NCBI GenBank assembly: GCA_000004985.1
Contig: GG738875.1
DNA from: Naegleria gruberi
Taxonomy: Eukaryota
Length of the DNA: 64,000 bases
Reading direction: 5' to 3' (one strand)
The notes under the pieces are model-generated. The model searched no databases, was not told the origin of the DNA, and worked only from the letters and a program-made list of their open reading frames with translations. The translations under genes and the position numbers were made by a program. Positions 8,119 to 29,144 of this stretch are shown here, piece after piece; position 1 is the stretch's first letter; each line of letters starts with the position of its first letter.

Positions 8119-8400
8119 AATTCAATAATTTCATCCTTATTGGTACATTAATTTCTCTCAAATACCATTAGTGAAATTCATTAATTAACTTCACTTGAAT
8201 TCATTATAATAAGTTGGTGATTAATTCCTTATACATTATAAAATCAATACAATCTATTTTCACTTCTTTTCCATAGAAATAATATTGGTGTTGAAGGTGT
8301 CAAATACATTAGTGAAATGAAACAATTAACTTCACTTGATATTAGTTATAATAAGATTGGTGATGAAGGCGCAAAATACCTTAGTGAAATGAAAACGAAA
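7540..8400 (+). repeat. Array of about 12 units of a 72-bp tandem repeat encoding LRRs, extending past the stop codon with one decayed and one intact extra unit
   Basis: The units are near-identical at the DNA level, for example atgaaacaattaacttcacttgatattagt...ggtgttgaaggtgccaaatatattagtgaa. Copies after the TGA lie at 8120-8280 (decayed) and 8281-8400 (intact). Confidence 0.85.
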
Positions 8401-8405
8401 ACAAT

Positions 8406-9582
8406 TTATTGAAATTCAATAATTTCATCCTTATTAGTTACATTAATTTCTCTCTTTAAAACCATTGAAGTATATTCATTAATAATTTCATTTAAATTCT
8501 TATTAACTTGAATGATTAATTCCTTTTTAACATTATCAAAATCAATAATTCTTTTTTGACCTCTTTTCCAAACAAGATAAAATCTATAAAAAGCACTTGA
8601 ATAAGCAATATTAAAAGCATCCATTACAGAATCTTCATACTTGTTAATAAATGATTTTAATTTACCTTCAATTAACATTTTTAAAATCATTTGAGTAATA
8701 TTTAAAGAAACAACAGCCATTGGAAATGATTGAGTTTGTGATAGAGAATAAATATCTTGAGTTGTTTTTTCATCACTATAAACAAAGAATAATAATTGTA
8801 AAATACCTAACATTCCAACTCCTCTTAAATCTGTTTTTGGATCATTTCCTTGAAATCCAATGGCTTCCCAATGTGCTCCAATAGATGGACAATTTTGTTT
8901 ATCTCCTGTTATTTTTTTATATATTGTAAATAATTGTCTTTCATGTTGTTCAATTTCATGATTTAATGGTATTTGTGTTAAGGCTATTAAAAATTCTTTT
9001 TCCTTTCTTATATTTTCATTATCTGTCTTTGAAAAACATGAAAATATTTTACTAAACATGGAATTTGATGATGAATTTGTTAATTTATCTCTTGCTACTT
9101 CTATTTCTGTTTTCATTTTAATTGAGTTATAATATTTAATAGTTTCATCATAACTAATATTTAATTCTCTACTATTTAATTCACTTATTTGAACTGTTTG
9201 TTGTCCATATTGTTGTTGTTCTCTTAATAATTGTACATCATCCCATTGTTTTTTAACATTTTCATAGGCTTCATTCATATCTTCTTCTTCAATTTGTATT
9301 GTTTCATTAGTAATAGTAGTATTTGTTATATTGTTATTAGTTGTATTAATAGTTATTGCTGATGTTGTATTATTGTTATTGGTTAGTAGTGTTAGTAATT
9401 TTAATTTGTTCTAATTGTTTAAATTCCTTAGAAATATCATTAGCAGATTCATCCCTATTTGATGTTTGATTCTTTGAAAATTCTTCATCCCAATTATAAG
9501 GCTCTTCATCTTTTTCTTCATTAAAATCAATATTTAAGTCATCATCATTCAATTCGTCAACTTCCTTATGGTGGAGATCCAT
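8406..9582 (-). CDS. ELMO/CED-12 domain protein; probable frame break near 9376-9400
   Basis: The ELMO motif is WEAIGFQGNDPKTDLRGVGMLGILQLL. The main ORF at 8406-9278 stays open upstream of its listed M. The ORF at 9376-9582 lies in another frame and encodes an acidic N-terminus. I interpret these as one gene with a 1-nt indel or a tiny intron. Confidence 0.7.
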
Positions 9583-11177: not shown

Positions 11178-12740
11178 NNNNNNNNNNNNNNNNNNNNNNN
11201 NNNNNNNNNNNNNNNNNNNNNNNNNNNNNNNNNNNNNNNNNNNNNNNNNNNNNNNNNNNNNNNNNNNNNNNNNNNNNNNNNNNNNNNNNNNNNNNNNNNN
11301 NNNNNNNNNNNNNNNNNNNNNNNNNNNNNNNNNNNNNNNNNNNNNNNNNNNNNNNNNNNNNNNNNNNNNNNNNNNNNNNNNNNNNNNNNNNNNNNNNNNN
11401 NNNNNNNNNNNNNNNNNNNNNNNNNNNNNNNNNNNNNNNNNNNNNNNNNNNNNNNNNNNNNNNNNNNNNNNNNNNNNNNNNNNNNNNNNNNNNNNNNNNN
11501 NNNNNNNNNNNNNNNNNNNNNNNNNNNNNNNNNNNNNNNNNNNNNNNNNNNNNNNNNNNNNNNNNNNNNNNNNNNNNNNNNNNNNNNNNNNNNNNNNNNN
11601 NNNNNNNNNNNNNNNNNNNNNNNNNNNNNNNNNNNNNNNNNNNNNNNNNNNNNNNNNNNNNNNNNNNNNNNNNNNNNNNNNNNNNNNNNNNNNNNNNNNN
11701 NNNNNNNNNNNNNNNNNNNNNNNNNNNNNNNNNNNNNNNNNNNNNNNNNNNNNNNNNNNNNNNNNNNNNNNNNNNNNNNNNNNNNNNNNNNNNNNNNNNN
11801 NNNNNNNNNNNNNNNNNNNNNNNNNNNNNNNNNNNNNNNNNNNNNNNNNNNNNNNNNNNNNNNNNNNNNNNNNNNNNNNNNNNNNNNNNNNNNNNNNNNN
11901 NNNNNNNNNNNNNNNNNNNNNNNNNNNNNNNNNNNNNNNNNNNNNNNNNNNNNNNNNNNNNNNNNNNNNNNNNNNNNNNNNNNNNNNNNNNNNNNNNNNN
12001 NNNNNNNNNNNNNNNNNNNNNNNNNNNNNNNNNNNNNNNNNNNNNNNNNNNNNNNNNNNNNNNNNNNNNNNNNNNNNNNNNNNNNNNNNNNNNNNNNNNN
12101 NNNNNNNNNNNNNNNNNNNNNNNNNNNNNNNNNNNNNNNNNNNNNNNNNNNNNNNNNNNNNNNNNNNNNNNNNNNNNNNNNNNNNNNNNNNNNNNNNNNN
12201 NNNNNNNNNNNNNNNNNNNNNNNNNNNNNNNNNNNNNNNNNNNNNNNNNNNNNNNNNNNNNNNNNNNNNNNNNNNNNNNNNNNNNNNNNNNNNNNNNNNN
12301 NNNNNNNNNNNNNNNNNNNNNNNNNNNNNNNNNNNNNNNNNNNNNNNNNNNNNNNNNNNNNNNNNNNNNNNNNNNNNNNNNNNNNNNNNNNNNNNNNNNN
12401 NNNNNNNNNNNNNNNNNNNNNNNNNNNNNNNNNNNNNNNNNNNNNNNNNNNNNNNNNNNNNNNNNNNNNNNNNNNNNNNNNNNNNNNNNNNNNNNNNNNN
12501 NNNNNNNNNNNNNNNNNNNNNNNNNNNNNNNNNNNNNNNNNNNNNNNNNNNNNNNNNNNNNNNNNNNNNNNNNNNNNNNNNNNNNNNNNNNNNNNNNNNN
12601 NNNNNNNNNNNNNNNNNNNNNNNNNNNNNNNNNNNNNNNNNNNNNNNNNNNNNNNNNNNNNNNNNNNNNNNNNNNNNNNNNNNNNNNNNNNNNNNNNNNN
12701 NNNNNNNNNNNNNNNNNNNNNNNNNNNNNNNNNNNNNNNN
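11178..12740. other. Assembly gap (N run)
   Basis: Run of n characters. Confidence 1.
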
Positions 12741-12742
12741 AA

Positions 12743-13951
12743 ACTGAAGAAATTTTAACAGATGATGAAGATAATGATCAATCTAATAATAATTTAAATA
12801 ATTCAAATTTAAATAATAATAATTTAAATAATAATTCAAATAATTTAAAAAATTTAAAAAATTTATATAAAAAACAAATATTAAAACAAATATTTAATTT
12901 AAATTTAACATGTCAACATATAAGTATAAGCATATTTCAAAATGAAGAATATTCCAATTTATTATGGAAATATATATTTCTAAATATAGTACCTAAAAAT
13001 CATCCATTTTATAAATCTAATACAGATAATAATTATTTACAAACATGTAATAATATGAAAATATATAGAAATTGTAAATATGGTAATACAATATTTAATA
13101 ATTTTAAATTAAAATGTAAATTATATCAATCCTATAAATGGAAAGTAATTAAAAATAGTTGTAAAATAATGAACATGTCTGCATCTTCATCATTTATATT
13201 AATGAATGAAGAAGGTGAATTATTAGATGCATCTTTATTAAAAATAATTTTAATTGGAAATAGACAAATTGGTAAAACAAGTTTACTTTCCTATTATATA
13301 AATAATACAAATATAGATAAAATAGAACCTACAATTGGATTTGATTTTACATCATGTTTAATTAAAGTATATGAAAATAGATTTAATTTATATGAAAATA
13401 AATTATCAATTAAATATTCATGTGGATTACAAATATGGGATTGTTCAGATTTAGATAAAGAATCAAATGAAATATGTACAAGTGTATTTAAAGATACAGA
13501 TGCTATTATATTATGTTATGATTGTAATAATTTACAATCTTTTATTGATTTAAAACAAATTCATTATCCTTTATTAGAAAATTATATTAAATTATATAAA
13601 AATATTGAATATTTACCTAAAATTATTGTTGGTTTAAAATCTGATTTACAAAATAATGTAAATGATCAATTAGTTTTAGATTTTGTTAAACAAAATGATA
13701 TGACTTTTATTAAAACAAGTATTTTTAAAAATTTAAATAATAATTTAAATGGAAATGATAATAATTTAAATAATTTAAATAATAATTACATGTTACCATT
13801 TAATTATGTAGTATATGCTAATAGACAAGATAACATGTTATTAAATAATAATAATAATAATTATAATTATCAATTAAATGAAGGTTTAGATTTGGCTTTA
13901 TTAAACATGTTTTTAAATTATGATTATGAAGAGGAAAATAATTTAATTTAA
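12743..13951 (+). CDS. Divergent Rab-like small GTPase; ORF open from the gap edge, N-terminus in gap
   Basis: The same frame is open from 12743 to the TAA at 13951. The G1 motif is KIILIGNRQIGKTSLL, switch I is TIGFDF, G3 is the degenerate LQIWDCSD in place of WDTAGQ, and G4 is GLKSD. Possibly a pseudo-GTPase. Confidence 0.6.
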   Translation, partial: TEEILTDDEDNDQSNNNLNNSNLNNNNLNNNSNNLKNLKNLYKKQILKQIFNLNLTCQHISISIFQNEEYSNLLWKYIFLNIVPKNHPFYKSNTDNNYLQTCNNMKIYRNCKYGNTIFNNFKLKCKLYQSYKWKVIKNSCKIMNMSASSSFILMNEEGELLDASLLKIILIGNRQIGKTSLLSYYINNTNIDKIEPTIGFDFTSCLIKVYENRFNLYENKLSIKYSCGLQIWDCSDLDKESNEICTSVFKDTDAIILCYDCNNLQSFIDLKQIHYPLLENYIKLYKNIEYLPKIIVGLKSDLQNNVNDQLVLDFVKQNDMTFIKTSIFKNLNNNLNGNDNNLNNLNNNYMLPFNYVVYANRQDNMLLNNNNNNYNYQLNEGLDLALLNMFLNYDYEEENNLI

Positions 13952-14005
13952 TAAATTGTTTTTTGTTATTATTTTACAACTTGTAAATTGTAAAGTGTGA
14001 TCATA

Positions 14006-14467
14006 ATGATTGGTTTAAAATTTCCAATAAATTTTGGAAGTATAAGATTAAAAAAAATGAAGAAACGATCTTTACCATCATGGGCTTCATCATCACCTAC
14101 TTCTAATAATAATAATACTTTATCATCAACAATAATTACATCTACAACCAATAATACTACAAGTGATCAACAACAATCTACTATTACTAATAATTATGAT
14201 AATAATATAAAATCGGAAGAAGTAAATGATGATAAACAAGATGATCGTAATTATTTATCACCATTCGAAATGTCTAAAAAAAGAAAAATTGAACAAGATC
14301 AATTATTACAATCTTCTTCACAATCATCCTCTCAACCATTAGATGATAATATTAATATTACTAATAATAATAATGATCATAAAAAAGTAAATTATTCCAA
14401 TTTAATTAAACCTAATAAGGAATTAATTAACAAATATATAAATTTCTATATGAAATATCAACGTTTA
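14006..14467 (+). CDS. 5' part of the DEDDh exonuclease gene (N-terminal Ser/Asn-rich region), truncated by the gap
   Basis: The first ATG is at 14006; the track start at 13997 is a GTG. The last 87 nt before the gap (14381-14467) are identical to 17819-17905, and the protein continues ...NKYINFYMKYQRL into IILDCETSGF. Confidence 0.5.
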
Positions 14468-16040
14468 NNNNNNNNNNNNNNNNNNNNNNNNNNNNNNNNN
14501 NNNNNNNNNNNNNNNNNNNNNNNNNNNNNNNNNNNNNNNNNNNNNNNNNNNNNNNNNNNNNNNNNNNNNNNNNNNNNNNNNNNNNNNNNNNNNNNNNNNN
14601 NNNNNNNNNNNNNNNNNNNNNNNNNNNNNNNNNNNNNNNNNNNNNNNNNNNNNNNNNNNNNNNNNNNNNNNNNNNNNNNNNNNNNNNNNNNNNNNNNNNN
14701 NNNNNNNNNNNNNNNNNNNNNNNNNNNNNNNNNNNNNNNNNNNNNNNNNNNNNNNNNNNNNNNNNNNNNNNNNNNNNNNNNNNNNNNNNNNNNNNNNNNN
14801 NNNNNNNNNNNNNNNNNNNNNNNNNNNNNNNNNNNNNNNNNNNNNNNNNNNNNNNNNNNNNNNNNNNNNNNNNNNNNNNNNNNNNNNNNNNNNNNNNNNN
14901 NNNNNNNNNNNNNNNNNNNNNNNNNNNNNNNNNNNNNNNNNNNNNNNNNNNNNNNNNNNNNNNNNNNNNNNNNNNNNNNNNNNNNNNNNNNNNNNNNNNN
15001 NNNNNNNNNNNNNNNNNNNNNNNNNNNNNNNNNNNNNNNNNNNNNNNNNNNNNNNNNNNNNNNNNNNNNNNNNNNNNNNNNNNNNNNNNNNNNNNNNNNN
15101 NNNNNNNNNNNNNNNNNNNNNNNNNNNNNNNNNNNNNNNNNNNNNNNNNNNNNNNNNNNNNNNNNNNNNNNNNNNNNNNNNNNNNNNNNNNNNNNNNNNN
15201 NNNNNNNNNNNNNNNNNNNNNNNNNNNNNNNNNNNNNNNNNNNNNNNNNNNNNNNNNNNNNNNNNNNNNNNNNNNNNNNNNNNNNNNNNNNNNNNNNNNN
15301 NNNNNNNNNNNNNNNNNNNNNNNNNNNNNNNNNNNNNNNNNNNNNNNNNNNNNNNNNNNNNNNNNNNNNNNNNNNNNNNNNNNNNNNNNNNNNNNNNNNN
15401 NNNNNNNNNNNNNNNNNNNNNNNNNNNNNNNNNNNNNNNNNNNNNNNNNNNNNNNNNNNNNNNNNNNNNNNNNNNNNNNNNNNNNNNNNNNNNNNNNNNN
15501 NNNNNNNNNNNNNNNNNNNNNNNNNNNNNNNNNNNNNNNNNNNNNNNNNNNNNNNNNNNNNNNNNNNNNNNNNNNNNNNNNNNNNNNNNNNNNNNNNNNN
15601 NNNNNNNNNNNNNNNNNNNNNNNNNNNNNNNNNNNNNNNNNNNNNNNNNNNNNNNNNNNNNNNNNNNNNNNNNNNNNNNNNNNNNNNNNNNNNNNNNNNN
15701 NNNNNNNNNNNNNNNNNNNNNNNNNNNNNNNNNNNNNNNNNNNNNNNNNNNNNNNNNNNNNNNNNNNNNNNNNNNNNNNNNNNNNNNNNNNNNNNNNNNN
15801 NNNNNNNNNNNNNNNNNNNNNNNNNNNNNNNNNNNNNNNNNNNNNNNNNNNNNNNNNNNNNNNNNNNNNNNNNNNNNNNNNNNNNNNNNNNNNNNNNNNN
15901 NNNNNNNNNNNNNNNNNNNNNNNNNNNNNNNNNNNNNNNNNNNNNNNNNNNNNNNNNNNNNNNNNNNNNNNNNNNNNNNNNNNNNNNNNNNNNNNNNNNN
16001 NNNNNNNNNNNNNNNNNNNNNNNNNNNNNNNNNNNNNNTN
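14468..16040. other. Assembly gap (N run, one stray t)
   Basis: Run of n characters. Confidence 1.
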
Positions 16041-16367
16041 TTGTGAAGAACGACTTCCTCCTCTATAATATTGTTGTTGTTGTTGCGACATTTTTTAATA
16101 CTTGTTCAATTAAATTGTTAGAGAAAAGGATTCTTCTTTATAAGAGACAGCGAAGAGTGGAAGGATGAGCTAGGGTTGTTATCCCAACTTGCTCAGTTGA
16201 ATCAATGTTTTCATTTTAGATGATTAACTGCTATCATAAGGCCAGTCTGTAGTGTTGGGATAAAGACCAAAGGTTCAATTCTCTCCTCCAGTCTATCATT
16301 ATTTTTCATACAAGTTGAAATTGAAGAATTGTTTTTTAACTTGACTTGCAGAAAATTGTGCAAAAAA

Positions 16368-17720
16368 ATGTTTGAACAACAAGAACAACAACAACAATTG
16401 GTAGTTACCAACAATAACACACCCACTTCAACAGGAGGAGATACATCATTAGCAACATCAGCAACAACAACAATAACATTTGGACAAGAAATTCATGAAC
16501 ATTATAAATTTCTAACCAATCAAAAAGAATATGGTACTAAAAATCACATGAACAAATTTATTGAAAGATTTTCTAAAGAATATCATTCAAGTTCTAAACA
16601 AACACAATTATTATTTAAAGTATTACATTTAATATCTAATGATTTATTAGTAAAATTTAATAGTAGTAATCAATTAGTAAATAGTAATGATTTATTATTT
16701 GTTAAGAATCATTTATATACTATTAGTATGGTATGTACATTTTTTACAATAATATATTTAATATTTATTACAATAATTTAATTATTTATTACAATTTAAT
16801 ATAGATTGCTAGAAATATTCCATTTAGAGGAGCATTTTCTGATCATGTTGAATTATTATTAGATTCAATGAAACATTTATGTGATTTATTTAATAATTTA
16901 CAATTTATTGAATATTTAAATCAAAATAATTTAAATTTTATTGTTAAAAATAATAATACTAATAATACTAATCAAATGCAAGATAATGAAAACAAGATGA
17001 AAATGATGAAGAAGAAGATAATCCAATTTAACTATTTCTGAAAATATAATTGAAAGTATAAAAATAGAAATTATTAGAGTATTTTTTAGAAGTGTTCAAA
17101 ATTTTTCTGATGCTATTGATGTTAAATGTTCAAATTATTATACAGAATTAATATTAAAATTTATATATTTACAAATTGATGAATATGATAAAAATAGACA
17201 TACTACTATATTAATGTGTACTGACTTTTTAAGAATATTCTTTTCAGCTGTTACACATCAAGCACATATTAATTCACCTATTTTATTACAAAAAGTATTA
17301 AATTTATTTTTATTAACTAACAGTGAGAATGATAGTGTATGGTCAGATGCAGAAGAATCTGAAATTATTACTTTAATTAGTCATATTTCATTAATTTCCT
17401 TAACAAGTAAGAGATCATATTCATCAATTCAATTTGAATTATTATCATCTACAATGTATAAAGATGATCAAGATGATTTGGAATTTGAAGAAGGACCAAT
17501 TGAAAAATTATTAAAAATTGAATGTGATTTTTCAAATATTAATTTAAATTTAATTAAAAATTCCATTTCTAGAATTATTACAAAATTACAATGTAAAAAA
17601 TTACTTGATGAAGAAACATTTGAACATTGTGTATTAGCATTAAGTTATTTAGTTACAATTACAAATCCTAAAAATTTAAATTTAAATCAAGATTTTAATT
17701 TACATTTTGAATTATTTGAA
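16368..17720 (+). CDS. Large hypothetical protein, 5' part: exon 1 at 16368-16730, intron at 16731-16804, exon 2 from 16805; continues across the gap into 21128-23005
   Basis: ATG at 16368. The intron runs gtatgtacat...aatatag. All three frames are blocked around 16990-17025, so there is either a frameshift or two genes. The frame is open from 17023 to the gap edge and ends ...HFELFE. Confidence 0.4.
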
Positions 17721-17770
17721 NNNNNNNNNNNNNNNNNNNNNNNNNNNNNNNNNNNNNNNNNNNNNNNNNN
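17721..17770. other. Assembly gap
   Basis: Run of n characters. Confidence 1.
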
Positions 17771-18739
17771 GATGATAATATTAATATTAATAATAATACC
17801 ACTATTACTAATAATAATGATAATAAAAAAGTAAATTATTCCAATTTAATTAAACCTAATAAGGAATTAATTAACAAATATATAAATTTCTATATGAAAT
17901 ATCAACGTTTAATAATTTTAGATTGTGAAACAAGTGGATTTACTAAAAATGATCAAGTGATTGAATTAGCAGCAATTGAAGTTATAAATGGAATGAAAAC
18001 AGGTTTAATATTTAATACAAGAATTAAATTAAATGAAAATGTTAAAATTCATGAAAAGGCTTTTAATGTTCATCAAATAAGTGAACAAGATTTAATTACA
18101 AAACCAAATTCTAATTTTATTTATTCTAATTTTATTGAATTTTTAAAAGATAAAAATAATTTAAATACTGGTATTATTGCACATAATTTAAATTTTGATT
18201 TAAGAATGATTAAACAAGATATTTTAAAATATTTATTTAATGAAAATTTAAATGATATTAATAATTTAAATGATAAATTACCAAATATATTAATAGATAC
18301 AAATAGACATTTTTGTACAATGAATTTTTATAAAAATATAAGAGGAAAGAATAATAGTTATGATTTAGATAGTACATTACATTATTTTGGAATTAATAAA
18401 AAACAAAGACAAGATAAACATACAGCACTCATTGATACACAAGTTACTTTTGAATTATTTAAAAGTTTAAAACAATATATTGAATTAAATATTAATAATC
18501 AATCTATTAATGATTATTATTATAAATATTTATTAAATAATAATACTATCAATAGTAGTAATAATATTATTAATACTAATACTACTAATAATGGTCAAGT
18601 AAATTCATCATCATCCTCTGTCAATACTACTACAACTATTAATGTGGTGGCAGAAAATGTATCTAATGATGAAATGAATATTGATAATGAAAATTATTCA
18701 ATATTTAGTTATATTAAAGATCTATTCAAATGGTTTTAA
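17771..18739 (+). CDS. DEDDh 3'-5' exonuclease (DnaQ/epsilon-like), 3' part of the gene begun at 14006
   Basis: Exo I is ILDCETSGF (DxE), Exo II is IIAHNLNFDLRMI and Exo III is HTALIDTQVTFELF (H-x4-D). The stop is TAA at 18737-18739. Confidence 0.75.
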   Translation, partial: DDNININNNTTITNNNDNKKVNYSNLIKPNKELINKYINFYMKYQRLIILDCETSGFTKNDQVIELAAIEVINGMKTGLIFNTRIKLNENVKIHEKAFNVHQISEQDLITKPNSNFIYSNFIEFLKDKNNLNTGIIAHNLNFDLRMIKQDILKYLFNENLNDINNLNDKLPNILIDTNRHFCTMNFYKNIRGKNNSYDLDSTLHYFGINKKQRQDKHTALIDTQVTFELFKSLKQYIELNINNQSINDYYYKYLLNNNTINSSNNIINTNTTNNGQVNSSSSSVNTTTTINVVAENVSNDEMNIDNENYSIFSYIKDLFKWF

Positions 18740-18800
18740 AATGAATCATTATCAACAATTCTATCACCAACAATTCAAATCAATTCAAATCATGTCTTAT

Positions 18801-19844
18801 TCATTCTTCTTGCTGTTCATTTAATAAAATAATAAATTCTCTTGAACTTTGACCAAATGTTAAAATATCATTATTTTTTAATTCATAATATCTTGAATCA
18901 TCAATTCTTTCACCATTAATAAATGTTCCATTTGTACTTTTTAAATCAATTATAAATGGTTTAATATCTTCTTCATTATTTAAAGATGATTGTACATATC
19001 TATTTTTATCATTATTAATAATTTTTCTAAAACAAATAACAGCATGTTGACTACTACATGATGGATTTAATAATGAAATATCTGTTACATCTTGATCTCT
19101 ACCTAATAACCATGCTTTTTGTTTATATAATAAAATTGGATTTGATTTTTCATTTTTCATTTCAACAATTATCCATTTTAAATTTGTTAATTTACATTCA
19201 GGTGGTGATTGCCATTTTAATATCGTTCCTTTTTGATTCACTATATTACTTTGTAATATTAATATACCACTATTTTCAAAATTAATTCCAACATTTATAT
19301 TATTAGTACTGGATAATGTTTGATCGTTATTATCATTTAAATTATTATCATTCTTATTATTAAAAGATGATGATGATGATGAATGACTATTGAATGATGA
19401 TGATTGTTGATTAGCCTTTTTTAATTGATATAATAAATTTCTCTTTTCTCTTTCTATTTTGTTTTCTTCATATATTTCATTATATGTTCTCTTATTAGAT
19501 TGTTGTTGTTGATTAGATGGATTCAATGATGATGTAGTATTTGATGTAGTAATAGTTGATGATTTCTTATTAGAAGCAAAAGGATCAATTCTTTCAGGTG
19601 ATAATTGATTATTTCTCCATTTTGAAGTGTAATCATTTTCTCTATCTGATATTGTTTTTGTTTTATATTTATCAAATACATCATTAGATTGATTTCTTTC
19701 ATAGTTTTTACTAACTTCTTGTACGTAACGTTGTGGATCATTCCATTGATTCTTTACACTTTCATTCCATCGACTAGAATTTTGATTATTATTATTATTA
19801 GAAGAGTTTTTAAAGGCTTCAAAACCAGAAAATTCCTCTCGTTT
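18801..19844 (-). CDS. SNIP1-like FHA-domain protein; 5' end in gap
   Basis: The C-terminal FHA domain reads LLGRDQDVTDISLLNPSCSSQHAVICF...IIDLKSTNGTFINGERIDDSRYYELKNNDILTFGQSSREFIILL and aligns closely to the SNIP1 FHA domain. The frame stays open upstream to the gap; the track M at 19526 is a TTG. Confidence 0.75.
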   Translation of the reverse strand, partial: KREEFSGFEAFKNSSNNNNNQNSSRWNESVKNQWNDPQRYVQEVSKNYERNQSNDVFDKYKTKTISDRENDYTSKWRNNQLSPERIDPFASNKKSSTITTSNTTSSLNPSNQQQQSNKRTYNEIYEENKIEREKRNLLYQLKKANQQSSSFNSHSSSSSSFNNKNDNNLNDNNDQTLSSTNNINVGINFENSGILILQSNIVNQKGTILKWQSPPECKLTNLKWIIVEMKNEKSNPILLYKQKAWLLGRDQDVTDISLLNPSCSSQHAVICFRKIINNDKNRYVQSSLNNEEDIKPFIIDLKSTNGTFINGERIDDSRYYELKNNDILTFGQSSREFIILLNEQQEE

Positions 19845-21127
19845 NNNNNNNNNNNNNNNNNNNNNNNNNNNNNNNNNNNNNNNNNNNNNNNNNNNNNNNN
19901 NNNNNNNNNNNNNNNNNNNNNNNNNNNNNNNNNNNNNNNNNNNNNNNNNNNNNNNNNNNNNNNNNNNNNNNNNNNNNNNNNNNNNNNNNNNNNNNNNNNN
20001 NNNNNNNNNNNNNNNNNNNNNNNNNNNNNNNNNNNNNNNNNNNNNNNNNNNNNNNNNNNNNNNNNNNNNNNNNNNNNNNNNNNNNNNNNNNNNNNNNNNN
20101 NNNNNNNNNNNNNNNNNNNNNNNNNNNNNNNNNNNNNNNNNNNNNNNNNNNNNNNNNNNNNNNNNNNNNNNNNNNNNNNNNNNNNNNNNNNNNNNNNNNN
20201 NNNNNNNNNNNNNNNNNNNNNNNNNNNNNNNNNNNNNNNNNNNNNNNNNNNNNNNNNNNNNNNNNNNNNNNNNNNNNNNNNNNNNNNNNNNNNNNNNNNN
20301 NNNNNNNNNNNNNNNNNNNNNNNNNNNNNNNNNNNNNNNNNNNNNNNNNNNNNNNNNNNNNNNNNNNNNNNNNNNNNNNNNNNNNNNNNNNNNNNNNNNN
20401 NNNNNNNNNNNNNNNNNNNNNNNNNNNNNNNNNNNNNNNNNNNNNNNNNNNNNNNNNNNNNNNNNNNNNNNNNNNNNNNNNNNNNNNNNNNNNNNNNNNN
20501 NNNNNNNNNNNNNNNNNNNNNNNNNNNNNNNNNNNNNNNNNNNNNNNNNNNNNNNNNNNNNNNNNNNNNNNNNNNNNNNNNNNNNNNNNNNNNNNNNNNN
20601 NNNNNNNNNNNNNNNNNNNNNNNNNNNNNNNNNNNNNNNNNNNNNNNNNNNNNNNNNNNNNNNNNNNNNNNNNNNNNNNNNNNNNNNNNNNNNNNNNNNN
20701 NNNNNNNNNNNNNNNNNNNNNNNNNNNNNNNNNNNNNNNNNNNNNNNNNNNNNNNNNNNNNNNNNNNNNNNNNNNNNNNNNNNNNNNNNNNNNNNNNNNN
20801 NNNNNNNNNNNNNNNNNNNNNNNNNNNNNNNNNNNNNNNNNNNNNNNNNNNNNNNNNNNNNNNNNNNNNNNNNNNNNNNNNNNNNNNNNNNNNNNNNNNN
20901 NNNNNNNNNNNNNNNNNNNNNNNNNNNNNNNNNNNNNNNNNNNNNNNNNNNNNNNNNNNNNNNNNNNNNNNNNNNNNNNNNNNNNNNNNNNNNNNNNNNN
21001 NNNNNNNNNNNNNNNNNNNNNNNNNNNNNNNNNNNNNNNNNNNNNNNNNNNNNNNNNNNNNNNNNNNNNNNNNNNNNNNNNNNNNNNNNNNNNNNNNNNN
21101 NNNNNNNNNNNNNNNNNNNNNNNNNNN
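19845..21127. other. Assembly gap
   Basis: Run of n characters. Confidence 1.
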
Positions 21128-23005
21128 TTTTGAATTATTTGAAAAAGTTTTTTTATTTTTACAAGAATTAATTAAAAAATTAGTTGCAGATCAAAAAACT
21201 AAAATTGGTAGAACACTTGTTTTACATTTATTAAAATCATGTAGAAAATTATTACAATTTAATAATTTTGAAATTTTCATGATTGAAAAGAGAATTTTAA
21301 TTTTATTTGAATTTTTAAATTTAATTAAAAATGGTTTATCAATTGCAAATAATTCTGGAAAGAAAGTTTTTAGAAGAAAGGTACAATTATATGCTTCTAA
21401 ATTAATTAGATGTTTTATGAATTTTACAAAACAATATTTAAATTATTTTAATTTAAATTTATTTGATTATTTTAAAAATACAAATCATTTAATTTTTATT
21501 AATAATAATTTAAATAATGAAAATAATAATAATAGTAATGAAAATAATAGTAATAATAATAATTTAAATAATTTAAATGATATGAAAAAAGATTTAATTA
21601 ATATTGAAATTAAAAATGAAATTGAAAAATTTGATAATTTTAAATATTTTATTTTAAATAATCCAGTTATAGAATTAATTACAGATAGATATTTATGGTT
21701 TGAATTACATTCAGAATATTTAAATTTAATGACAGAATATTATGTAATGAAACTGAAATGTTATTTAAAAATGTAATTGAACATGTTGTTACAATAACTT
21801 TACAATTTATTACAAAAGTTAAAGATAATGCTAAAAATGTATTAAATGGTTTAACTTTAGGTTCAAGAAAGAGACAACAACAATATGAAGATGATGAAGA
21901 TGATGAAGAAGATGTTAGACAAATTAAATTTACTAAAAAAGAAGTATCTAGAGCATTTAATTTATTAACAATTTCATTACCAAATATAGGTAGTGAATTA
22001 TTTAAATTAACATATCAAGAAATTACACAAATAGCAATATTCTTTACAGAAAAGAGTTTATTAACAGTTGGTGTTGATTCAATTTGTTTATTATCAAGTT
22101 TAATTAAATCAATGAAAAAATATGATATTGAATTACTTGAAAAGGAAATGACTATATATGTTAATAAGATATTCCCAATTATTAAAGGAAATTTTAAACA
22201 AGATGAAATTACAATGATGGAAAATAGTACACAAGAAGATGATGGTGATTTTGAAACTGAAATTGCATTAACATGTATTGATTTTTATCATGCTATATTT
22301 GTTGATTTGGAATTGAGAGAATTATTATTGAAAAAATTACCAAATTTTGTTCATAATTTATTTATTAATTTATGTAATTTTGTTAATAAGGAATGTTCAT
22401 ATGAATTGGAAAGTTTAGAACGTGTTGAACAATCAAAATTAGCTTTTAGAATTTTAGAATCAATGATTGAATTTGATTTTAATAATAATATTAATAGTAA
22501 TATTAATAGTAATAGTAATAATACATCTAATAGTAATAATACATCTAATAATAATCTAGTTAAAGCAAGTGATATTAAATCATTTGTAATTACACATTTA
22601 GATGGTATTATACGTTCATTTAAAACTGATAGAGATTATCACAAAATTGCAAAATATTTGAGAGCTTTAAATTTATTCTTTAAATTAGATAGCAAGTGTG
22701 CACAATTATTAGTTGATCATTTTAATAATTCGAATGGATCTAGTAGTAACAGTTCTGGTAATAATTCTAATAAGAAACAAAATAAGAAAAAGTCTTCTAA
22801 TAGTGGTAATAGTGGTAATAGTGGTGGATCATCACAACAACAACAATTAGGTAAACAATTTAGAGATTGTTGTCAATATATTGATAATTTAAAGAAACCA
22901 TCCAAGACATTTAATGATGAAACACCTCTATTTATTAGAAATGAATTATCAAATCAATCACAAGAATTAGTTTTAAAACTTAAACATTGGGGTTTATTAC
23001 AATAA
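21128..23005 (+). CDS. Large hypothetical protein, 3' part (continuation of 16368-17720); probable frame break near 21740-21776
   Basis: The first 16 nt, ttttgaattatttgaa, are identical to 17705-17720, and the translation FELFE continues cleanly. The ORFs at 19689-21776 and 21758-23005 overlap in different frames. No domain is recognised. The protein is Asn/Ser-rich. Confidence 0.45.
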
Positions 23006-23149
23006 AATATCTCTTTTTGAAATTATCAGCATTCTTTTAACATGTTGTTCAATAACACAATGGTAATGATGATGATGAAATATTCAATCAATTCTTAATT
23101 GATCAAAAGGTCAAGCGCAAACTTTTCATCAATCAATTTATTAAAAAAT

Positions 23150-24162
23150 ATGAAAATTTCTAACAAGACATTTATTGTTACCGGTGGTGCATCCGGATTA
23201 GGTGAAGCAACTGGTATGTTATTATATTTTAATATTAAAATATAATTAAATATAACAATATAACAATTAAATTGTCACAACTATTTTGTAATAATAATAA
23301 TAATATTTATAATAATAATAATATATTTAAATAGTTAGACATTTAGTTTCATTAGGTGCTAATGTAGTTATATTTGATCTTGGAGATGCTAAAGGAAAAT
23401 TATTAGAAACAGAATATTTAAATAAGGTTAAATATGTTCATGTTGATGTTTGTGATGAAAATCAAGTTCAAGATGGTATTGATCAACTTGTTAAAACTTT
23501 TGGAAATACTTTATATGGTGTTATTAATGCTGCTGGTATTGGTGTATGTTTTATTATTATTCATATTTAATTTATTAATATTTAACATGTTTACATTTTA
23601 CAATAATATTTAATCATGAATATAATAATAATCATAAATATAATAATAGGATCCATGTAGAGTATATAATCCAAAGAGTGGAATTGTTCATTCATTAAAA
23701 TCATTTAATAAGGTAATGAATGTTAATGTGACAGGTACATTTAATGTATTAAGATTGGCAGTTCAACAAATGATGAAACAAAATGCACCATTATGTGGTA
23801 AAGATCAAGAACGTGGTATTATAATTAATACAGCTTCTATTGCTGCTTATGAAGGTCAAATTGGACAAGCAAGTTATTCTGCAAGTAAAGGTGCAATTGT
23901 TTCAATGACTTTACCATTAGCAAGAGAATTGAGTATGTATAATATTAGATGTGTAACTATTGCTCCTGGTTTATTCCTCACACCAATGTTAATGAGTTTG
24001 GGTGAAAAAGTTAGAGAATCTTTAGCTAAACAAGTTCCATATCCAAAAAGATTAGGTGAACCAAATGAATATGCTTCACTTGTTCAATTCTTAATTGAAA
24101 ATTCTTTAATGAATGGTGAAGTTGTTAGAATGGATGGTTCAATTAGAATGTCATCTCTTTAA
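23150..24162 (+). CDS. 3-hydroxyacyl-CoA dehydrogenase type 2 (HSD17B10-like short-chain dehydrogenase); join(23150..23213, 23335..23543, 23650..24162)
   Basis: The N-terminus is [22 protein letters not shown]. The catalytic [17 protein letters not shown] motif (YxxxK) is present. The C-terminal half aligns closely with HSD17B10: [12 protein letters not shown]...[26 protein letters not shown]...[11 protein letters not shown]. Introns are gtatgtt...aatag, and the spliced protein is 261 aa. Confidence 0.85.
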
Positions 24163-24250
24163 AATTATCTTAAATACTTTATTGCTAAATTTATATTCTT
24201 AATATTCTTTTGGTAAATTTATCCATTATTCATTAAACATTGCAATAAAT

Positions 24251-25473
24251 TTAATATAATTTATTTTGATACAATGAAAATTCAACACTTGCTTCTTCTT
24301 CTAATAAATTTTTAACTGCTTGTTTAATTTCCTTATCTTGATAAATAATTCCATAAACAGCTGAAATAATTGGACAATTAATTCCAAGTTTTGTAACAAG
24401 TTCAAATGCAGCCTTAGTTGTTGGAACACCTTCTGCAACACTTCCTAAATTTGCTAAAATATCATTAATTTTCTCTCCTTTTCCTAATCTAAATCCAACT
24501 GTGAAATTTCTTGATTTTTCCGATGTACAAGTTAAGAATAAATCACCAATTCCAGCCAATCCACTCATTGTTAAAGGATTTGCTCCTAAAACATGTCCAA
24601 TTTTTGTAATTTCATTTAAACCTCTTGTTAAAAGAGCTGCTCTTGTATTCATTTGAAATCCTAAACCTGAACATACACCAGAAGCAATAGCTATAACGTT
24701 CTTAAGAGCTCCACAAACTTCAACTCCAACTGGATCATCTGAAGTATAAACTCTAAAATGTGAACTGTGACTGTTTATCAAATATAAACAACACTAATTT
24801 AAAGAAGTAAAACATACAAAACACGTTGTGCCCATAAAGCACTCTTAATATTTGAAGAAGCAACAGTTACACAAGTCACTTGTCTTTGACAAATTTCAAC
24901 AGCAAAAGAAGGACCACTTAAAAAGACACATTCATCAGCAAATTCCTTTCCCATAACATCTTCAATAATTTGATATGGTAATTGTAAAGTTTCACTTTCA
25001 ATGCCCTTATTAGCAAATATAAATAAATGTTTCATTTCTTTACAACTTTGTAAAATTAAATCTTTAAATTTCAATAAAACACCTCTCATAAATTGAGTTG
25101 GAATTGAAAATAATAAAACTGAATGATTATTAATAGTTTCCAAATCAATTGAATTTGTTGCTTTCATATTTTCAGGTAATTGAAATTGTGATAAATATTT
25201 TGGATTTAAATGTTGATTATTAATTGAATTGACTACATTTTCATCTCTTGCATAAATTGTAATACGATCATTCAAGTGATGGGCCAAGTGATAGGAAAGT
25301 GCCATACCAAAATTACCACCTCCGAATACAAGTACTGTATCAATGGGTAATTTTTCATTTATATTACTACTATTATTTTGTTCATTATTATTACTAATGG
25401 AAGGAATATTGGTTGTATAATTGGTTTTTTCCAAGTCTATTGGTAAATTAGAATAGGATGTTATTGATTTCAT
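24251..25473 (-). CDS. NAD-dependent glycerol-3-phosphate dehydrogenase; complement(join(24251..24770, 24818..25473))
   Basis: Motifs are VLVFGGGNFGMALS, FLSGPSFAVEI and GVEVCGALKNVIAIASGVCSGLGFQMNTRAALLTRGL. A 47-nt intron gtatgttttac...aaacag reconciles the two frames. Confidence 0.85.
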
Positions 25474-25487
25474 ATTTTAAATATATA

Positions 25488-25817
25488 TTAAATTAATAAT
25501 AATAATAATATTGGTAATGTGATGATGAAATAGTTGAATGATGAATGTGATGAAGGCTCCTGATGATCAAAAAGTAATGAACAGATCGGCAAGCAAGGGA
25601 CGTAAAGCCTTTTTTTTGAAAGGTTGTGATATGCAAGACCAAAGATGTGAGCAATCGTCACTGGCAAGTAATAAATCACTAAGGTAGGTTCGAGCTTTCT
25701 TTTCAGCTCCCTGGGAAGTCTTTGTTTTCTGGGATTTTCGAAATAGATAGCAATACCATCAGTGAAATCCAATTGTTCTCTGTTATTCTTTTTCAATGAA
25801 TTAACTGCAACATACAA
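25488..25817 (-). CDS. Hypothetical small protein with a C-terminal hydrophobic segment (weak)
   Basis: A 109-codon ORF in a GC-richer island. The track start is a TTG. No recognisable domain. Confidence 0.2.
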   Translation of the reverse strand: MYVAVNSLKKNNREQLDFTDGIAIYFENPRKQRLPRELKRKLEPTLVIYYLPVTIAHIFGLAYHNLSKKRLYVPCLPICSLLFDHQEPSSHSSFNYFIITLPILLLLLI

Positions 25818-26051
25818 GTATGAATTTCTTCAAAAATACTCAAATCTAGAATAAGGAAATTAAAATTATCTTCTTAATACTTGAAGATTCTATCATCTTT
25901 AAAAAAACCCATTTTTCCTCAACTTTCTCCCATTCAGTCAATTGAGTAAGGTCTATTTTCGTTGGAGTCCGTTTTTGTTAAGTCAAAAGTGACTAACTTT
26001 TGTGCTTCAAGAATCCCAGCAAAAATACAATCAAATTTATTATCCAAAAAA

Positions 26052-26702
26052 ATGACCAAACATCAAACATTAATTTCTGCAGTTAATCTGTTTAAAACAT
26101 GTTCTTTGAAAACACCATTGTATCAAACTTATCGGAATTTGAATACCTCTAAGAGTTTAATAGTATTATTAAATAATAATTATTTATCACAAGTCCGAAG
26201 TTTTTCAAATTGTAAATTTAATACAAATATTGCTGCTTCTACATCATCACCAAGTAATAATTCATCCACCAACAACAACACCACTACAACAAAAGCAGCA
26301 CCAAAAAAGAGAAGAGCAGTAGCAAAAAAACAAGTATTAACTGTAACAGATAGAGCAGCTGAAAGATTACAATACTTGTTATCAAAGAGACCTGGAGCAT
26401 TCGGAATTTTAATTGGATTAAAAAAGAGAGGATGTAATGGACTTTCATGGACTTTTGATTACATTTTCCAAGATACAGAAATACCCAAACTTGCAGAAAT
26501 TGTAGAAGATAAGGGTGTACGATTAATTGTTCAACCAAGTGCAGTAATGAATGTTATTGGTACTGTTATGGATTATGAAGAGAATGAAGTACATGCTAAA
26601 TTTGTTTTTAATAATCCAAATGCAATTGGTACTTGTGGTTGTGGAGAATCATTTAATGTGGATACTGCTGTAAATGAACATAAACGAGTTCAAAAGATGT
26701 AA
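26052..26702 (+). CDS. Iron-sulfur cluster assembly protein, IscA/HesB family, with an N-terminal presequence
   Basis: LTVTDRAAERLQYLL...GILIGLKKRGCNGLSWTFDY...GVRLIVQPSAVMNVIGTVMDYEE...CGCGESF shows the HesB signature and the three conserved Cys. The real ATG is at 26052; the track start is a TTG. Confidence 0.85.
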   Translation: MTKHQTLISAVNLFKTCSLKTPLYQTYRNLNTSKSLIVLLNNNYLSQVRSFSNCKFNTNIAASTSSPSNNSSTNNNTTTTKAAPKKRRAVAKKQVLTVTDRAAERLQYLLSKRPGAFGILIGLKKRGCNGLSWTFDYIFQDTEIPKLAEIVEDKGVRLIVQPSAVMNVIGTVMDYEENEVHAKFVFNNPNAIGTCGCGESFNVDTAVNEHKRVQKM

Positions 26703-26716
26703 AAAACTGTATATAT

Positions 26717-29144
26717 TTATTCAACTGCAATTTCAGACAGAATAAACTCAATATCAACAGCAAATTGATGTAATTTTGATGGATCACTCGATCTAAGTGT
26801 ACAAATTGTTTCTCCTTGTTGGAAAATCTTGGCTTCAATTAAAATATAATGAGTCTCGGCTGTTTGTGTGTAGAAATAAAACATATGAGGTTCGTTTCTG
26901 ATATTACTGGCCATAGTCAGTACACTGTTTTCTCTCAACTTTTCTTCAATTTCAGCATGACTTGGTCTATCGTTAAGGCTAAATCTACATGAATGTGTGG
27001 AAGCTACAAATGATTCAGATTTCCATTTTTGTTGATATTCTTGAGGTGTTAAAGCTTGTGGAACAACAATGGCAACATTATTAGTTTCATCATAATCCAT
27101 ATCTTCCAAAAGTCTTTCTTCATAAGCTTGCTTGCTTTCCTCTTCTTCTTCCTCTTCAGCCTCTTCTTCCTCAGCTTGTTCTTCAACTTCTTCTTCATCA
27201 TCACTTCCATCATCAATAGCTTGCCCAAGAACTTCAACATCCTTTACAATAAATCTTTCGCTTGGTTTGCCATAAATGATTGAAAGAGTATTGAATTCAG
27301 AGAATAAACGATCACGGAATTCTACTGACTCTTCTTCTGAGAACTTTGTGACAACATCCTTCTTTGTCAAAACTACACTCTTAGCCAAATCAACGTTAGC
27401 AGAGATTAATCTATAATAGAACAATGCACGATCGTGAACATCAGCGTGCGAAGTATCATTTACAGCAACTTCAAAAAGTCTTCCCAACATGGCTGACATT
27501 TCAGGTGCTCTAAGGAAGAACAATTTCATTGAACTAGTTAAAATTTGATTTCTAACACTATAGTGATAAGTCAAAAATGAATCAATAAAGTTTTCTAAAA
27601 TGTATGGAGCAGCTTGAATAATATCAGCTCTACCATATTCTCCCAAAATCCAAACAAATGAAGAAATGGCTTCTGGATCTTGAAGGGTGGACCAATGTTT
27701 GGTAATTGATGGAAGGTATACTTTACAAAATTCAAGATCATTGTACTTTCTCAAAATATCTTTCAAAACAATCATAGTTTCACTAATAATATGAAGAACT
27801 CCAGAATCTAAAAAGTCAATCAAGTGAGTCAAAGAATCTTCTGTAGCAAATGAAACTCTAACAGCAATTTCACCCAATGATTTAATGGCCTTTCTAGATG
27901 TTGAAACAGAAATATCTCCCAAAGAAACATAGTAACTTAATTCACTCATTATTTCTTGGACATTCTTTTCATTAGCCAAAAGAGTCAATACTTCTAACTT
28001 TAATTCCTTCAAGTAAGTTGGATCGTTATACTTAATATAAAAATCTTTAAAGAATGGTTGGAAAACTTGTGGACATCTAGAAATCATAAACTTTAAATGT
28101 TGCAAAATTGTATAGGCAAGTTCAGGACTTGAAGTAGCAAAAAGTAACAAAACTGGGTCTCTCAATCTTCCAAAAACTCTGGTGTGATTCTTTGGCATAT
28201 TTTGTGTGTAATGTAAGAATAAGTTAGTGATGGACATTACAACTGAAGCATTTGAAATTTCCAATTTATCATCCAATAAATTCATGATATCGAAAATTTC
28301 ATCATTAGTTTCTGGCTTATATTTTAATAATAATGTAACAACTTCAGTTAATTGCCATTCGGTATATTCAGCTAACTTGTTAAGAAGGTGATAAACCATC
28401 TTTTTAGTAACATTAACTCCACTTTCTTCAATTTCATTTAAGGAACGAATAGCGTTAACAATAACTTGACAATCCTTATCCTGAATCATATCATATAATC
28501 TATCATCAAACTTTTCAGCTGAAATATTTTTAGACTCCTTAATAATATTAAAACAACCTACCTTTAACAATATTTGAAGCAAGTTTGTATAATTTAGAAA
28601 CGCTAACAACAGCAGAACGTCTAACATACGGACTTGGATCGTTTAATCCTTCCTTGATAAGAGGAACCAAGTGTTCAGTGAGTTTAGAAATTCTCAAACT
28701 GCTCAATGAACGAAGAGCCAATCCACGAACAATAGGACTTTCATCTCTACAATCTCTTGCTAAAGTGTTAATAACTAAAATTGCCAAATCAACGTTTTGT
28801 CTAGCATAGTGAGTAATATATTGATAAATCATTTTCTTTTGAACAATATCCTTTGTGTTAACACCCATGATCATTCTATCAAACAATTTACTTGTATCCA
28901 AACCCATAGTAGTAAATCCAATCACACGTTGTAATACTTCTCTCTTCTTGGTTTGGTCGTTATCGATTGTTGGATCGGATAACAATTGTTTTAATTCTTG
29001 AATTTCACCCTTCTTATCCGGAAGATTGGTATTCTTATTTTGCTTCATCAGCGAACCGACAGAGCTCATAGTCTTGCTAATCGAAGAACCTAATTGTGAG
29101 GCTCCGGAAGAGAGTGTGTCACCCAACTGTTTGATTGCACTCAT
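26717..29144 (-). CDS. ap4b1: AP-4 adaptor complex beta subunit; complement(join(26717..28518, 28562..29144))
   Basis: The N-terminal trunk reads LQRVIGFTTMGLDTSKLFDRMIMGVNTKDIVQKKMIYQYITHYARQNVDLAILVINTLARDCRDESPIVRGLALRSLSSLR and aligns closely to AP4B1. There is an acidic hinge and a conserved C-terminal appendage. The 43-nt intron runs gtaggttg...atttcag. Confidence 0.85.

What the first reader, a model, noticed from the sequence alone, without database searches (positions are those of the whole stretch)
14381..21143. Gap-edge identities show that two loci are interleaved in the scaffold
The 87 nt before gap 2 (14381-14467) are identical to 17819-17905, just after gap 3. A further 50 nt on each side are similar, differing by low-complexity indels. 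The protein ...NKYINFYMKYQRL continues seamlessly into the DEDDh exonuclease (IILDCETSGF). Independently, the 16 nt before gap 3 (17705-17720, ttttgaattatttgaa, encoding FELFE) are identical to the first 16 nt after gap 4 (21128-21143), where the ORF continues FELFEKVFLF.... Contig A therefore continues in A' at 17771-19844, and contig B continues in B' at 21128 onward. The current order A-gap-B-gap-A'-gap-B' is very likely a scaffolding artefact. The alternative explanation is a haplotig or segmental duplication. Either way the exonuclease gene and the large hypothetical gene are each split.
Basis: seen in the sequence. Interest (0 to 1): 0.75.

Follow-up and report, generated by a model that had tools for sequence, protein, structure and literature searches.

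The report
Two contigs swapped in draft scaffold
Two small contigs in this draft amoeba (Naegleria-like) scaffold are placed in the wrong order and padded with about 2.9 kb of empty Ns, which makes three normal genes look broken; it is an assembly artefact, not biology.

Summary
The gap-edge identities are real. Homology runs back to 14342/17771, with one in-frame 15-nt indel and 2 substitutions. B's last 16 nt (17705-17720) equal B' first 16 nt (21128-21143), the only suffix-prefix overlap among all contig ends.

Joining A to A' restores a 429-aa DEDDh exonuclease. Joining B to B' restores a roughly 1050-aa conserved protein. Both joins align with Naegleria orthologs without a gap.

An FHA/SNIP1-like gene on the minus strand has its body at the right end of A' and a 17-codon start at the left end of B. 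Butting 19844 to 16041 is in frame and yields a 364-aa ORF with no residues missing.

Three relatives share the gene order Ras-exo-FHA-(variable)-big-adh_short-GPD. That fits only A, A', B, B'.

Gap 2 (1571 N) is about the unique length of A' (1933). Gap 4 (1283 N) is about the length of B (1664). This suggests two interleaved sub-scaffolds joined end to end by a nominal 50-N gap.

The verdict is a scaffolding artefact. A collapsed real tandem duplication of about 3.6 kb is not excluded (about 10%).

The parts
12741..14467 (+). Contig A. It holds the C-terminal roughly 390 codons of a Ras/Roc-family gene (12743-13951) and the 5' part of the exonuclease gene (ATG 14006 to the contig end, 154 codons).
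   Evidence: tblastn of the N. lovaniensis and L005 Ras proteins hits 12878-13927. ORF translation.
14342..14467 (+). A-side of the A/A' overlap. 14379-14467 is exactly identical to 17823-17911. 14342-14378 is a variant of 17771-17822 (15-nt in-frame indel plus 2 substitutions).
   Evidence: (family D10)
14468..16038 (.). Gap 2 (1571 N), the place where the unique part of A' (17912-19844, 1933 nt) belongs. It holds no independent missing sequence under the favoured reading.
16039..17720 (+). Contig B, which starts 'TNTTG'. It holds the first 17 codons of the FHA gene on the minus strand (ATG 16091-16089, down to 16041), a 276-nt divergent intergenic region (16092-16367), and the 5' part of the big conserved gene (exon 1 16368-16730, intron 16731-16804, exon 2 from 16805). 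It has at least one homopolymer frameshift near 16990-17035.
17721..17770 (.). Gap 3 (50 N), a nominal spacer between two pieces that are not neighbours. It is probably the end-to-end join of two interleaved sub-scaffolds.
   Evidence: inference
17771..19844 (+). Contig A'. 17771-17911 overlaps the end of A. The 3' part of the exonuclease gene continues at 17912-18739 (+). The FHA/SNIP1-like gene body is at 18801-19844 on the minus strand and is open to the contig edge.
19845..21127 (.). Gap 4 (1283 N), the place where contig B (about 1664 nt net of its overlaps) belongs.
21128..23005 (+). Start of contig B' (the contig runs to 30252). 21128-21143 repeats the last 16 nt of B. The big gene continues from 21144 to its stop at 23005, with a 1-nt homopolymer frameshift near 21745-21750.

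Best explanation
This is a scaffolding artefact in a draft assembly of a Naegleria-related amoeba. The four contigs A (12741-14467), A' (17771-19844), B (16039-17720) and B' (21128-30252) tile one continuous locus in the order A, A', B, B'. In the scaffold, B and A' are swapped.

The three junctions failed to merge for different reasons:
- A and A' overlap by 141/126 nt, but the overlap contains an in-frame 15-nt indel and two substitutions in a low-complexity Asn/Thr-coding stretch. These are probably two alleles, and they would drop the overlap below a merge threshold.
- B and B' overlap by only 16 nt, which is too short to detect.
- A' and B appear to abut inside a T5 run (A' ends ...CGTTT, B starts TNTTG), a spot with uncertain homopolymer length.

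Mate-pair links then probably produced two chains, A -1571- B and A' -1283- B', each skipping the contig that really sits in its gap. The two interleaved chains were probably concatenated with a nominal 50-N spacer.

The consequences are about 2.9 kb of Ns that stand for nothing, about 160 nt of duplicated bases, and three genes that look split: the DEDDh exonuclease, the FHA/SNIP1-like protein and a roughly 1050-aa conserved protein.

Shown here: the overlaps, the ortholog colinearity, the synteny and the restored ORFs. Inferred: the way the scaffolder went wrong, the allelic nature of the indel, and the exact abutment of A' and B.
For: - Overlaps: 89-nt exact and 141-nt gapped identity between the end of A and the start of A'. 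The 16-nt B/B' identity is the only suffix-prefix overlap among all contig ends, and chance gives about 1e-4 or less.
- Exonuclease: the merged protein (429 aa) hits Pfam RNase_T over the full profile. It aligns with the N. lovaniensis, N. fowleri and metagenome orthologs with no gap at ...YMKYQRL|IILDCETSGF....
- Big protein: the merged sequence aligns without a gap at ...HFELFE|KVFLFLQ... with three orthologs. Invariant residues F427, E428 and V430 straddle the join.
- FHA gene: the A' fragment lacks about 18 N-terminal residues, and B's left edge supplies a 17-codon minus-strand ORF start. That start begins MSQQ, as in ortholog P0009, and resembles the N. fowleri N-terminus. The concatenate aligns with no missing residues. 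The direct join 19844|16041 is in frame and gives a 364-aa ORF.
- Synteny: N. lovaniensis, N. fowleri and metagenome contig L005 all have Ras-exo-FHA-(variable)-big-adh_short-GPD with the same relative strands. The window matches only in the order A, A', B, B'.
- Gap sizes: gap 2 = 1571 against the 1933 nt unique to A'. Gap 4 = 1283 against 1664 nt of B. Both are about 370 nt short, in the same direction.
- Sequence quality: contig B is poor (an N at 16040, frameshift(s) at homopolymers). This fits thin coverage and not a double-coverage collapsed repeat.
Against: - No reads, mate pairs or second assembly of the same organism could be consulted, so the scaffolder's behaviour is inferred.
- A competent scaffolder with A-A', A'-B and B-B' links should have ordered them correctly. 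The order actually produced is what a true tandem duplication would give.
- The similarity of the 17-residue N-terminus to FHA orthologs is weak. It scores 22 against shuffles with p of about 0.03, and the shuffle test was similarly 'significant' against two unrelated N-termini. The exact A'|B abutment is therefore only probable.
- Relatives carry one or two genes (TrxR, F-box-like) between FHA and the big gene. These genes are absent from the sequenced part of the window.
- Both gap estimates are about 20% short.
Confidence: 0.8

Rival explanations
1. The scaffold order is right because the genome carries a recent tandem duplication of a roughly 3.6-kb unit (the A' unique part plus B). The assembler collapsed the two copies, so each contig is placed once: B in copy 1 and A' in copy 2. 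Gap 2 would then hold copy 1 of A', gap 4 would hold copy 2 of B, and gap 3 would hold the duplication junction. One intact copy of each gene would exist, together with a 3'-truncated copy of the big gene and a 5'-truncated copy of the exonuclease gene.
For: This model predicts the observed order, a small gap 3, and gap 2 and gap 4 lengths close to those of A' and B (1571 against 1933, and 1283 against 1664), without assuming a scaffolder error. The differences between A and A' at 14342-14378 and 17771-17822 could be differences between the two copies.
Against: - Only 141 nt and 16 nt are actually present twice.
- A collapsed two-copy region should have high coverage and good consensus. Contig B instead has an N and homopolymer frameshifts, and there is a contig break inside the supposed repeat unit, at A'|B.
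- Three differences in 52 nt followed by none in 89 nt is an odd pattern for copies similar enough to collapse over 3.6 kb.
- A 16-nt overlap of B' with B is shorter than reads spanning a repeat boundary would normally give.
- Relatives have single copies of all three genes.
Confidence: 0.1
2. The order A, A', B, B' is correct, but A' and B do not abut. A real unsequenced stretch of about 1-2.5 kb lies between them and holds the true FHA start plus another gene (a TrxR or F-box-like gene, as in relatives). On this reading the 17-codon ORF at B's left edge is the start of that other gene.
For: N. lovaniensis and N. fowleri have a TrxR gene divergent from the big gene at a similar distance (284-344 nt, against 276 nt here). 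L005 and N. fowleri have an F-box-like gene upstream of FHA. Neither gene is found anywhere in the sequenced window. The peptide similarity test is weak.
Against: - The region between FHA and the big gene differs in every relative examined (TrxR alone; TrxR plus F-box; F-box alone), so an empty interval here is not surprising.
- The 17 residues are exactly the number the FHA fragment lacks. They start MSQQ as in ortholog P0009, score best against the FHA N-termini, and join in frame.
- An extra 1-2.5 kb would make the gap 2 and gap 4 estimates wrong by 1.4-2.9 kb instead of about 0.37 kb.
Confidence: 0.15
3. A' and B' (or A and B) are haplotigs, that is, the second haplotype of the same region assembled separately and inserted beside the first.
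For: The in-frame 15-nt indel and two substitutions between the end of A and the start of A' look like allelic variation. Heterozygosity is reported for Naegleria (PMC9928731).
Against: Haplotigs duplicate whole stretches. Here every segment occurs once, and only 141 nt and 16 nt at contig ends are redundant. The pieces are complementary, not alternative.
Confidence: 0.03

Closest known systems
Local contig mis-ordering or interleaved scaffolds in mate-pair scaffolding of draft assemblies
   Same: Small contigs (1.7 and 2.1 kb), comparable in size to the clone inserts, are placed in the wrong relative order. Each gap is about the size of the contig that belongs in it. Swapping two contigs restores colinearity with relatives.
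   Different: The assembler, the libraries and the reads are unknown here, so the mechanism (two chains joined end to end) is inferred from the numbers only.
Unmerged overlapping contig ends ('negative gaps') padded with a fixed run of N
   Same: Neighbouring contigs share 141 nt (with an indel), 16 nt and about 2 nt. A 50-N spacer occurs here and again at 30253-30302.
   Different: In this case the 50-N spacer separates two contigs that are not the overlapping partners.
Contig break at a heterozygous indel in a low-complexity coding repeat
   Same: The A/A' overlap differs by an in-frame 15-nt indel plus two codon substitutions in an Asn/Thr-rich linker, followed by perfect identity.
   Different: Allelic origin is not shown. 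The difference could be between duplicate copies, or a consensus error.
Collapsed recent tandem duplication
   Same: It would give the same contig order and the same gap sizes.
   Different: The region shows no sign of raised coverage or quality. There is a contig break inside the putative unit, the sequence of B is poor, and relatives are single-copy.

Membership tests
Scaffold mis-order / mis-join artefact | Sequence overlap between the ends of contigs that are not adjacent in the scaffold | tested here: met
   A/A' share 89 nt exact identity within a 141-nt gapped overlap. B/B' share 16 nt, the only suffix-prefix overlap among all contig ends.
Scaffold mis-order / mis-join artefact | The proposed joins restore uninterrupted genes that are colinear with orthologs | tested here: met
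   The exonuclease, the big protein and the FHA protein all align without a gap at the joins. ORFs of 429 and 364 aa appear in the re-ordered sequence.
Scaffold mis-order / mis-join artefact | The gene order of related genomes supports the corrected order and not the scaffold order | tested here: met
   The order Ras-exo-FHA-(x)-big-adh_short-GPD is found in N. lovaniensis, N. fowleri and L005.
Scaffold mis-order / mis-join artefact | Reads or mate pairs contradict the scaffold order and support the corrected one | not testable with these tools
   No reads or second assembly were available. Exact-protein look-ups and metagenome junction scans found nothing.
Segmental / tandem duplication | Two copies of the duplicated unit are present in the sequence | tested here: not met
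   Only 141 nt and 16 nt occur twice. The rest of each putative copy would have to lie in runs of N.
Segmental / tandem duplication | About two-fold read depth over the unit, and a novel junction read | not testable with these tools
   No read data. The indirect signs (an N and frameshifts in B) suggest low rather than high coverage.
Haplotig | Extended redundancy: the same region present twice with allelic differences | tested here: not met
   No second copy of 17912-19844 or 16041-17704 exists in the window.
DEDDh exonuclease (Pfam RNase_T, PF00929) | Profile match above the curated cut-off, and the D-E-D-D-H catalytic residues | tested here: met
   The merged protein scores 72.8 bits (cut-off 24) over profile positions 1-164 of 164, residues 155-337. 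D158, E160, D250, H324 and D329 are invariant in the ortholog alignment. The domain is complete only after A and A' are joined.
FHA-domain, SNIP1-like protein (PF00498) | FHA profile match above the cut-off, and orthologs named SNIP1 | tested here: met
   61.2 bits against a cut-off of 20.7. Many database hits are named smad nuclear-interacting protein 1 by their sources.

The most novel reading that the evidence does not exclude
The scaffold order is true, and this amoeba carries a very recent 3.6-kb tandem duplication. Its junction would fuse the first ~430 codons of the big conserved gene to the 3' three-quarters of the DEDDh exonuclease gene, leaving truncated or chimeric gene copies beside intact ones.
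Probability: 0.08. Interest if true: 0.25.

Novelty: not a real feature. Interest (0 to 1): 0.1.

Why it matters
This matters only for the quality of the assembly and its annotation. As the scaffold stands, three conserved genes (the DEDDh exonuclease, the FHA/SNIP1-like protein and a roughly 1050-aa Naegleria-conserved protein) cannot be predicted intact. That would make them appear 'absent' in pangenome or ortholog surveys of this species. None of my three protein searches returned a product from this genome. The region is also about 3.06 kb too long. Swapping 16039-17720 with 17771-19844, merging the overlaps and deleting three runs of N repairs all three genes. It has no biological novelty.

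Tried and rejected
- Species identification by exact-protein look-up of three long window ORFs found nothing on record. The organism is therefore known only as a relative of Naegleria. Its proteins are 38-58% identical to N. lovaniensis and N. fowleri with conserved synteny, and 36% identical to Willaertia. The window's GC content of 28.7% is below the 33-37% quoted for Naegleria genomes.
- Metagenome scans for the predicted A'|B and B|B' junction sequences gave 0 hits.
- An Rfam scan of 12741-31000 for an RNA gene in the slightly GC-richer patch 16130-16300 gave 0 hits. blastn of the intergenic region against relatives showed only chance-level matches.
- A search of the window for the TrxR and F-box-like genes that relatives carry between FHA and the big gene found nothing.
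- Willaertia magna synteny was uninformative, because the neighbours there are different.
- The shuffle test on the 17-aa N-terminal peptide gave only weak support and was not specific. I do not rest the order on it.
- I considered and rejected an intron as the cause of the frame change near 17000, because there is no GT donor in the interval.
- I considered and rejected haplotigs, because there is no redundancy.
Full report
**What the sequence shows.** The window is AT-rich (28.7% GC) and contains six runs of N: 11178-12740, 14468-16038, a lone N at 16040, 17721-17770 (50 N), 19845-21127 and 30253-30302 (50 N). This defines contigs A 12741-14467, B 16039-17720, A' 17771-19844 and B' 21128-30252.

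The 87-mer 14381-14467 recurs at 17825-17911, which is a 6-nt slip. The full exact block is 89 nt, 14379-14467 = 17823-17911. Upstream of it, 14342-14378 aligns to 17771-17822 with 35 matches, two substitutions and one 15-nt indel. All of these keep the reading frame: DDNINITNNNNDHKK in A against DDNININNNTTITNNNDNKK in A'.

The 16-nt identity 17705-17720 = 21128-21143 is exact and occurs nowhere else in the window. It is the only exact suffix-prefix overlap of 8 nt or more among all oriented pairs of contig ends. Two random positions of this window share a 16-mer with an empirical probability of 7e-7. Even after about 120 end pairings, chance gives about 1e-4. The 89-nt block is far beyond chance.

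**What organism and what genes.** All three protein searches gave Naegleria as the best hits and returned no protein from this genome itself.
- The joined exonuclease is 38-43% identical to N. lovaniensis C9374_005786 and N. fowleri FDP41_005449.
- The big protein is 53-58% identical to N. lovaniensis C9374_005783 and an N. fowleri fragment, and 36% identical to Willaertia magna.
- The FHA protein is 49-54% identical to C9374_005785 and FDP41_005450. More distant hits are named smad nuclear-interacting protein 1 by their sources.

The source is therefore a Naegleria-lineage heterolobosean. I could not identify the species.

**Test of the A to A' join.** Joining 14006-14467 to 17912-18739 gives a 429-aa ORF. 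The full Pfam RNase_T profile (positions 1-164 of 164, 72.8 bits) maps to residues 155-337, starting one residue after the join. In the alignment with three orthologs there is no gap at the join: KELINKYINFYMKYQRL|IILDCETSGF against KDLVKEFVNFYTSCPRV IVLDCETSGF. Conserved N-terminal motifs (KKRSLPSW, SPFEMxKKR) sit in contig A, and the DEDDh residues sit in A'.

**Test of the B to B' join.** The conceptual protein consists of exon 1 16368-16730, intron 16731-16804, exon 2 from 16805 to 17720, then 21144-23005. It aligns end to end with the 925-aa N. lovaniensis protein. At the join, HFELFE|KVFLFLQELIKKLV matches HWRIFE RVFKVLQNRIRTLV without a gap. Residues that are invariant across four species lie on both sides of the join.

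**A third split gene gives the order.** On the minus strand, A' carries an FHA/SNIP1-like gene from its stop at 18801 up to the contig edge at 19844, and the ORF is still open there. Compared with its orthologs, this fragment lacks about 18 N-terminal residues.

The left edge of contig B carries a minus-strand ATG at 16091, followed by 17 codons (MSQQQQQYYRGGSRSSQ) that run into gap 2. Concatenating the two pieces aligns with the orthologs with no residue missing. The metagenomic ortholog P0009 also begins with MSQQ.

Joining 19844 directly to 16041 is in frame (...TCA CAA AAA CGA GAG...) and gives a 364-aa ORF. The junction lies in a T5 run. A' ends ...CGTTT and B begins TNTTG, so the break coincides with an ambiguous homopolymer.

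The peptide similarity on its own is weak and not specific. I therefore rate the exact abutment at about 65-70%.

**Synteny.** N. lovaniensis and N. fowleri have, in this window's orientation, Ras(+) exo(+) FHA(-) TrxR(-) [plus an F-box gene in N. fowleri] big(+) adh_short(+) GPD(-). A metagenome relative (L005/L006) has Ras, exo, FHA, an F-box-like ORF, then the big gene.

The window has Ras at 12743-13951 and adh_short and GPD at 23716-25473. The whole series is reproduced with the right strands only if A' is placed before B.

The interval between FHA and the big gene differs in every relative. The window contains no TrxR or F-box homolog. An empty 276-nt divergent intergenic region is therefore plausible, but a hidden gene in a real gap cannot be excluded.

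**Gap arithmetic.** The unique part of A' is 1933 nt and gap 2 is 1571 N. B net of its overlaps is 1664 nt and gap 4 is 1283 N. Each gap is therefore about the size of the contig that belongs in it, and both are short by about 370 nt.

This is what two chains, A -gap- B and A' -gap- B', would look like if each skipped the intervening contig and the two were concatenated with a nominal 50-N spacer. Between the end of A and the start of B', the re-ordered sequence is 3597 nt and the scaffold is 6660 nt, so the scaffold is 3063 nt too long.

A plausible trigger, which I infer, is that the polymorphic A/A' overlap could not be merged. A's right end would then have been linked to the next contig, B, and A' to B'.

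**Rivals.** A true tandem duplication of the roughly 3.6-kb unit, collapsed by the assembler, predicts the same order and the same gap sizes without any scaffolder error. I hold it at about 10% for these reasons:
- Only 141 and 16 nt are present twice.
- Contig B looks thinly covered. It has an N and one or two homopolymer frameshifts near 16990-17035, and a further frameshift lies in B' near 21748.
- There is a contig break inside the supposed repeat unit.
- Relatives are single-copy.

Haplotigs are rejected because nothing is redundant, although the two versions of the 37/52-nt stretch may be alleles. Heterozygosity is reported in Naegleria (PMC9928731).

**Verdict.** This is an assembly artefact with no biological novelty. 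Its practical value is a concrete repair: order the contigs A, A', B, B'; merge the overlaps; and drop gaps 2, 3 and 4. That restores three conserved genes.

Noticed in passing
window 30253-30302: The second 50-N gap cuts a minus-strand gene. The ORF is open to both gap edges: ...LQRNIPFIKQ on the right side, and VIQDDEVFDIVVKSG...MASPEWITKV... on the left side. The 219-aa ORF at 29509-30168 is therefore probably the C-terminal part of the 30303-31804 gene. No sequence overlap between the flanks was found.
   Followed up: partly
window 11178-12740 (gap 1): The Ras/Roc-family gene in contig A begins at about ortholog residue 140. Its N-terminal part is not in the end of the preceding contig. 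This gap therefore seems to hide real sequence, unlike gaps 2-4.
   Followed up: partly
window ~16990-17035 and ~21745-21750: There are frame changes inside the big conserved gene at A/T homopolymers, for example gtaatg where gtaaatg would keep the frame. There is no GT donor that would allow an intron. These look like base-calling or consensus indel errors and indicate thin coverage.
   Followed up: partly
L001 9682-9696 and L002 6921-6935 (N. lovaniensis, N. fowleri): The thioredoxin-reductase-like gene between FHA and the big gene ends ...GGA TGC TGA GGA TAA. This is Gly-Cys-UGA-Gly-stop, the classic selenocysteine C-terminus. The annotated products stop at the UGA. The gene is absent from the sequenced part of this window.
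   Followed up: partly
L001 14848-16335 (N. lovaniensis): A 495-aa gene with HTH_OrfB_IS605 / OrfB_IS605 / Cas12f-like TNB domains (TnpB/Fanzor-like) sits beside the Ras gene. Nothing comparable was noticed in the window.
   Followed up: no
window 7409-8440: There are about eight or more tandem copies of a 72-nt (24-codon) unit, 70-94% identical, inside an 820-aa ORF (5656-8118), with a further copy near 8259-8438.
   Followed up: no
window 5023-5059 / 5118-5154: A 37-nt inverted repeat, 97% complementary, with a 58-nt spacer.
   Followed up: no
window 16130-16300: The divergent FHA/big-gene intergenic region is somewhat GC-richer (39%) than the window average (29%). It has no Rfam match and no conservation with relatives.
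   Followed up: yes
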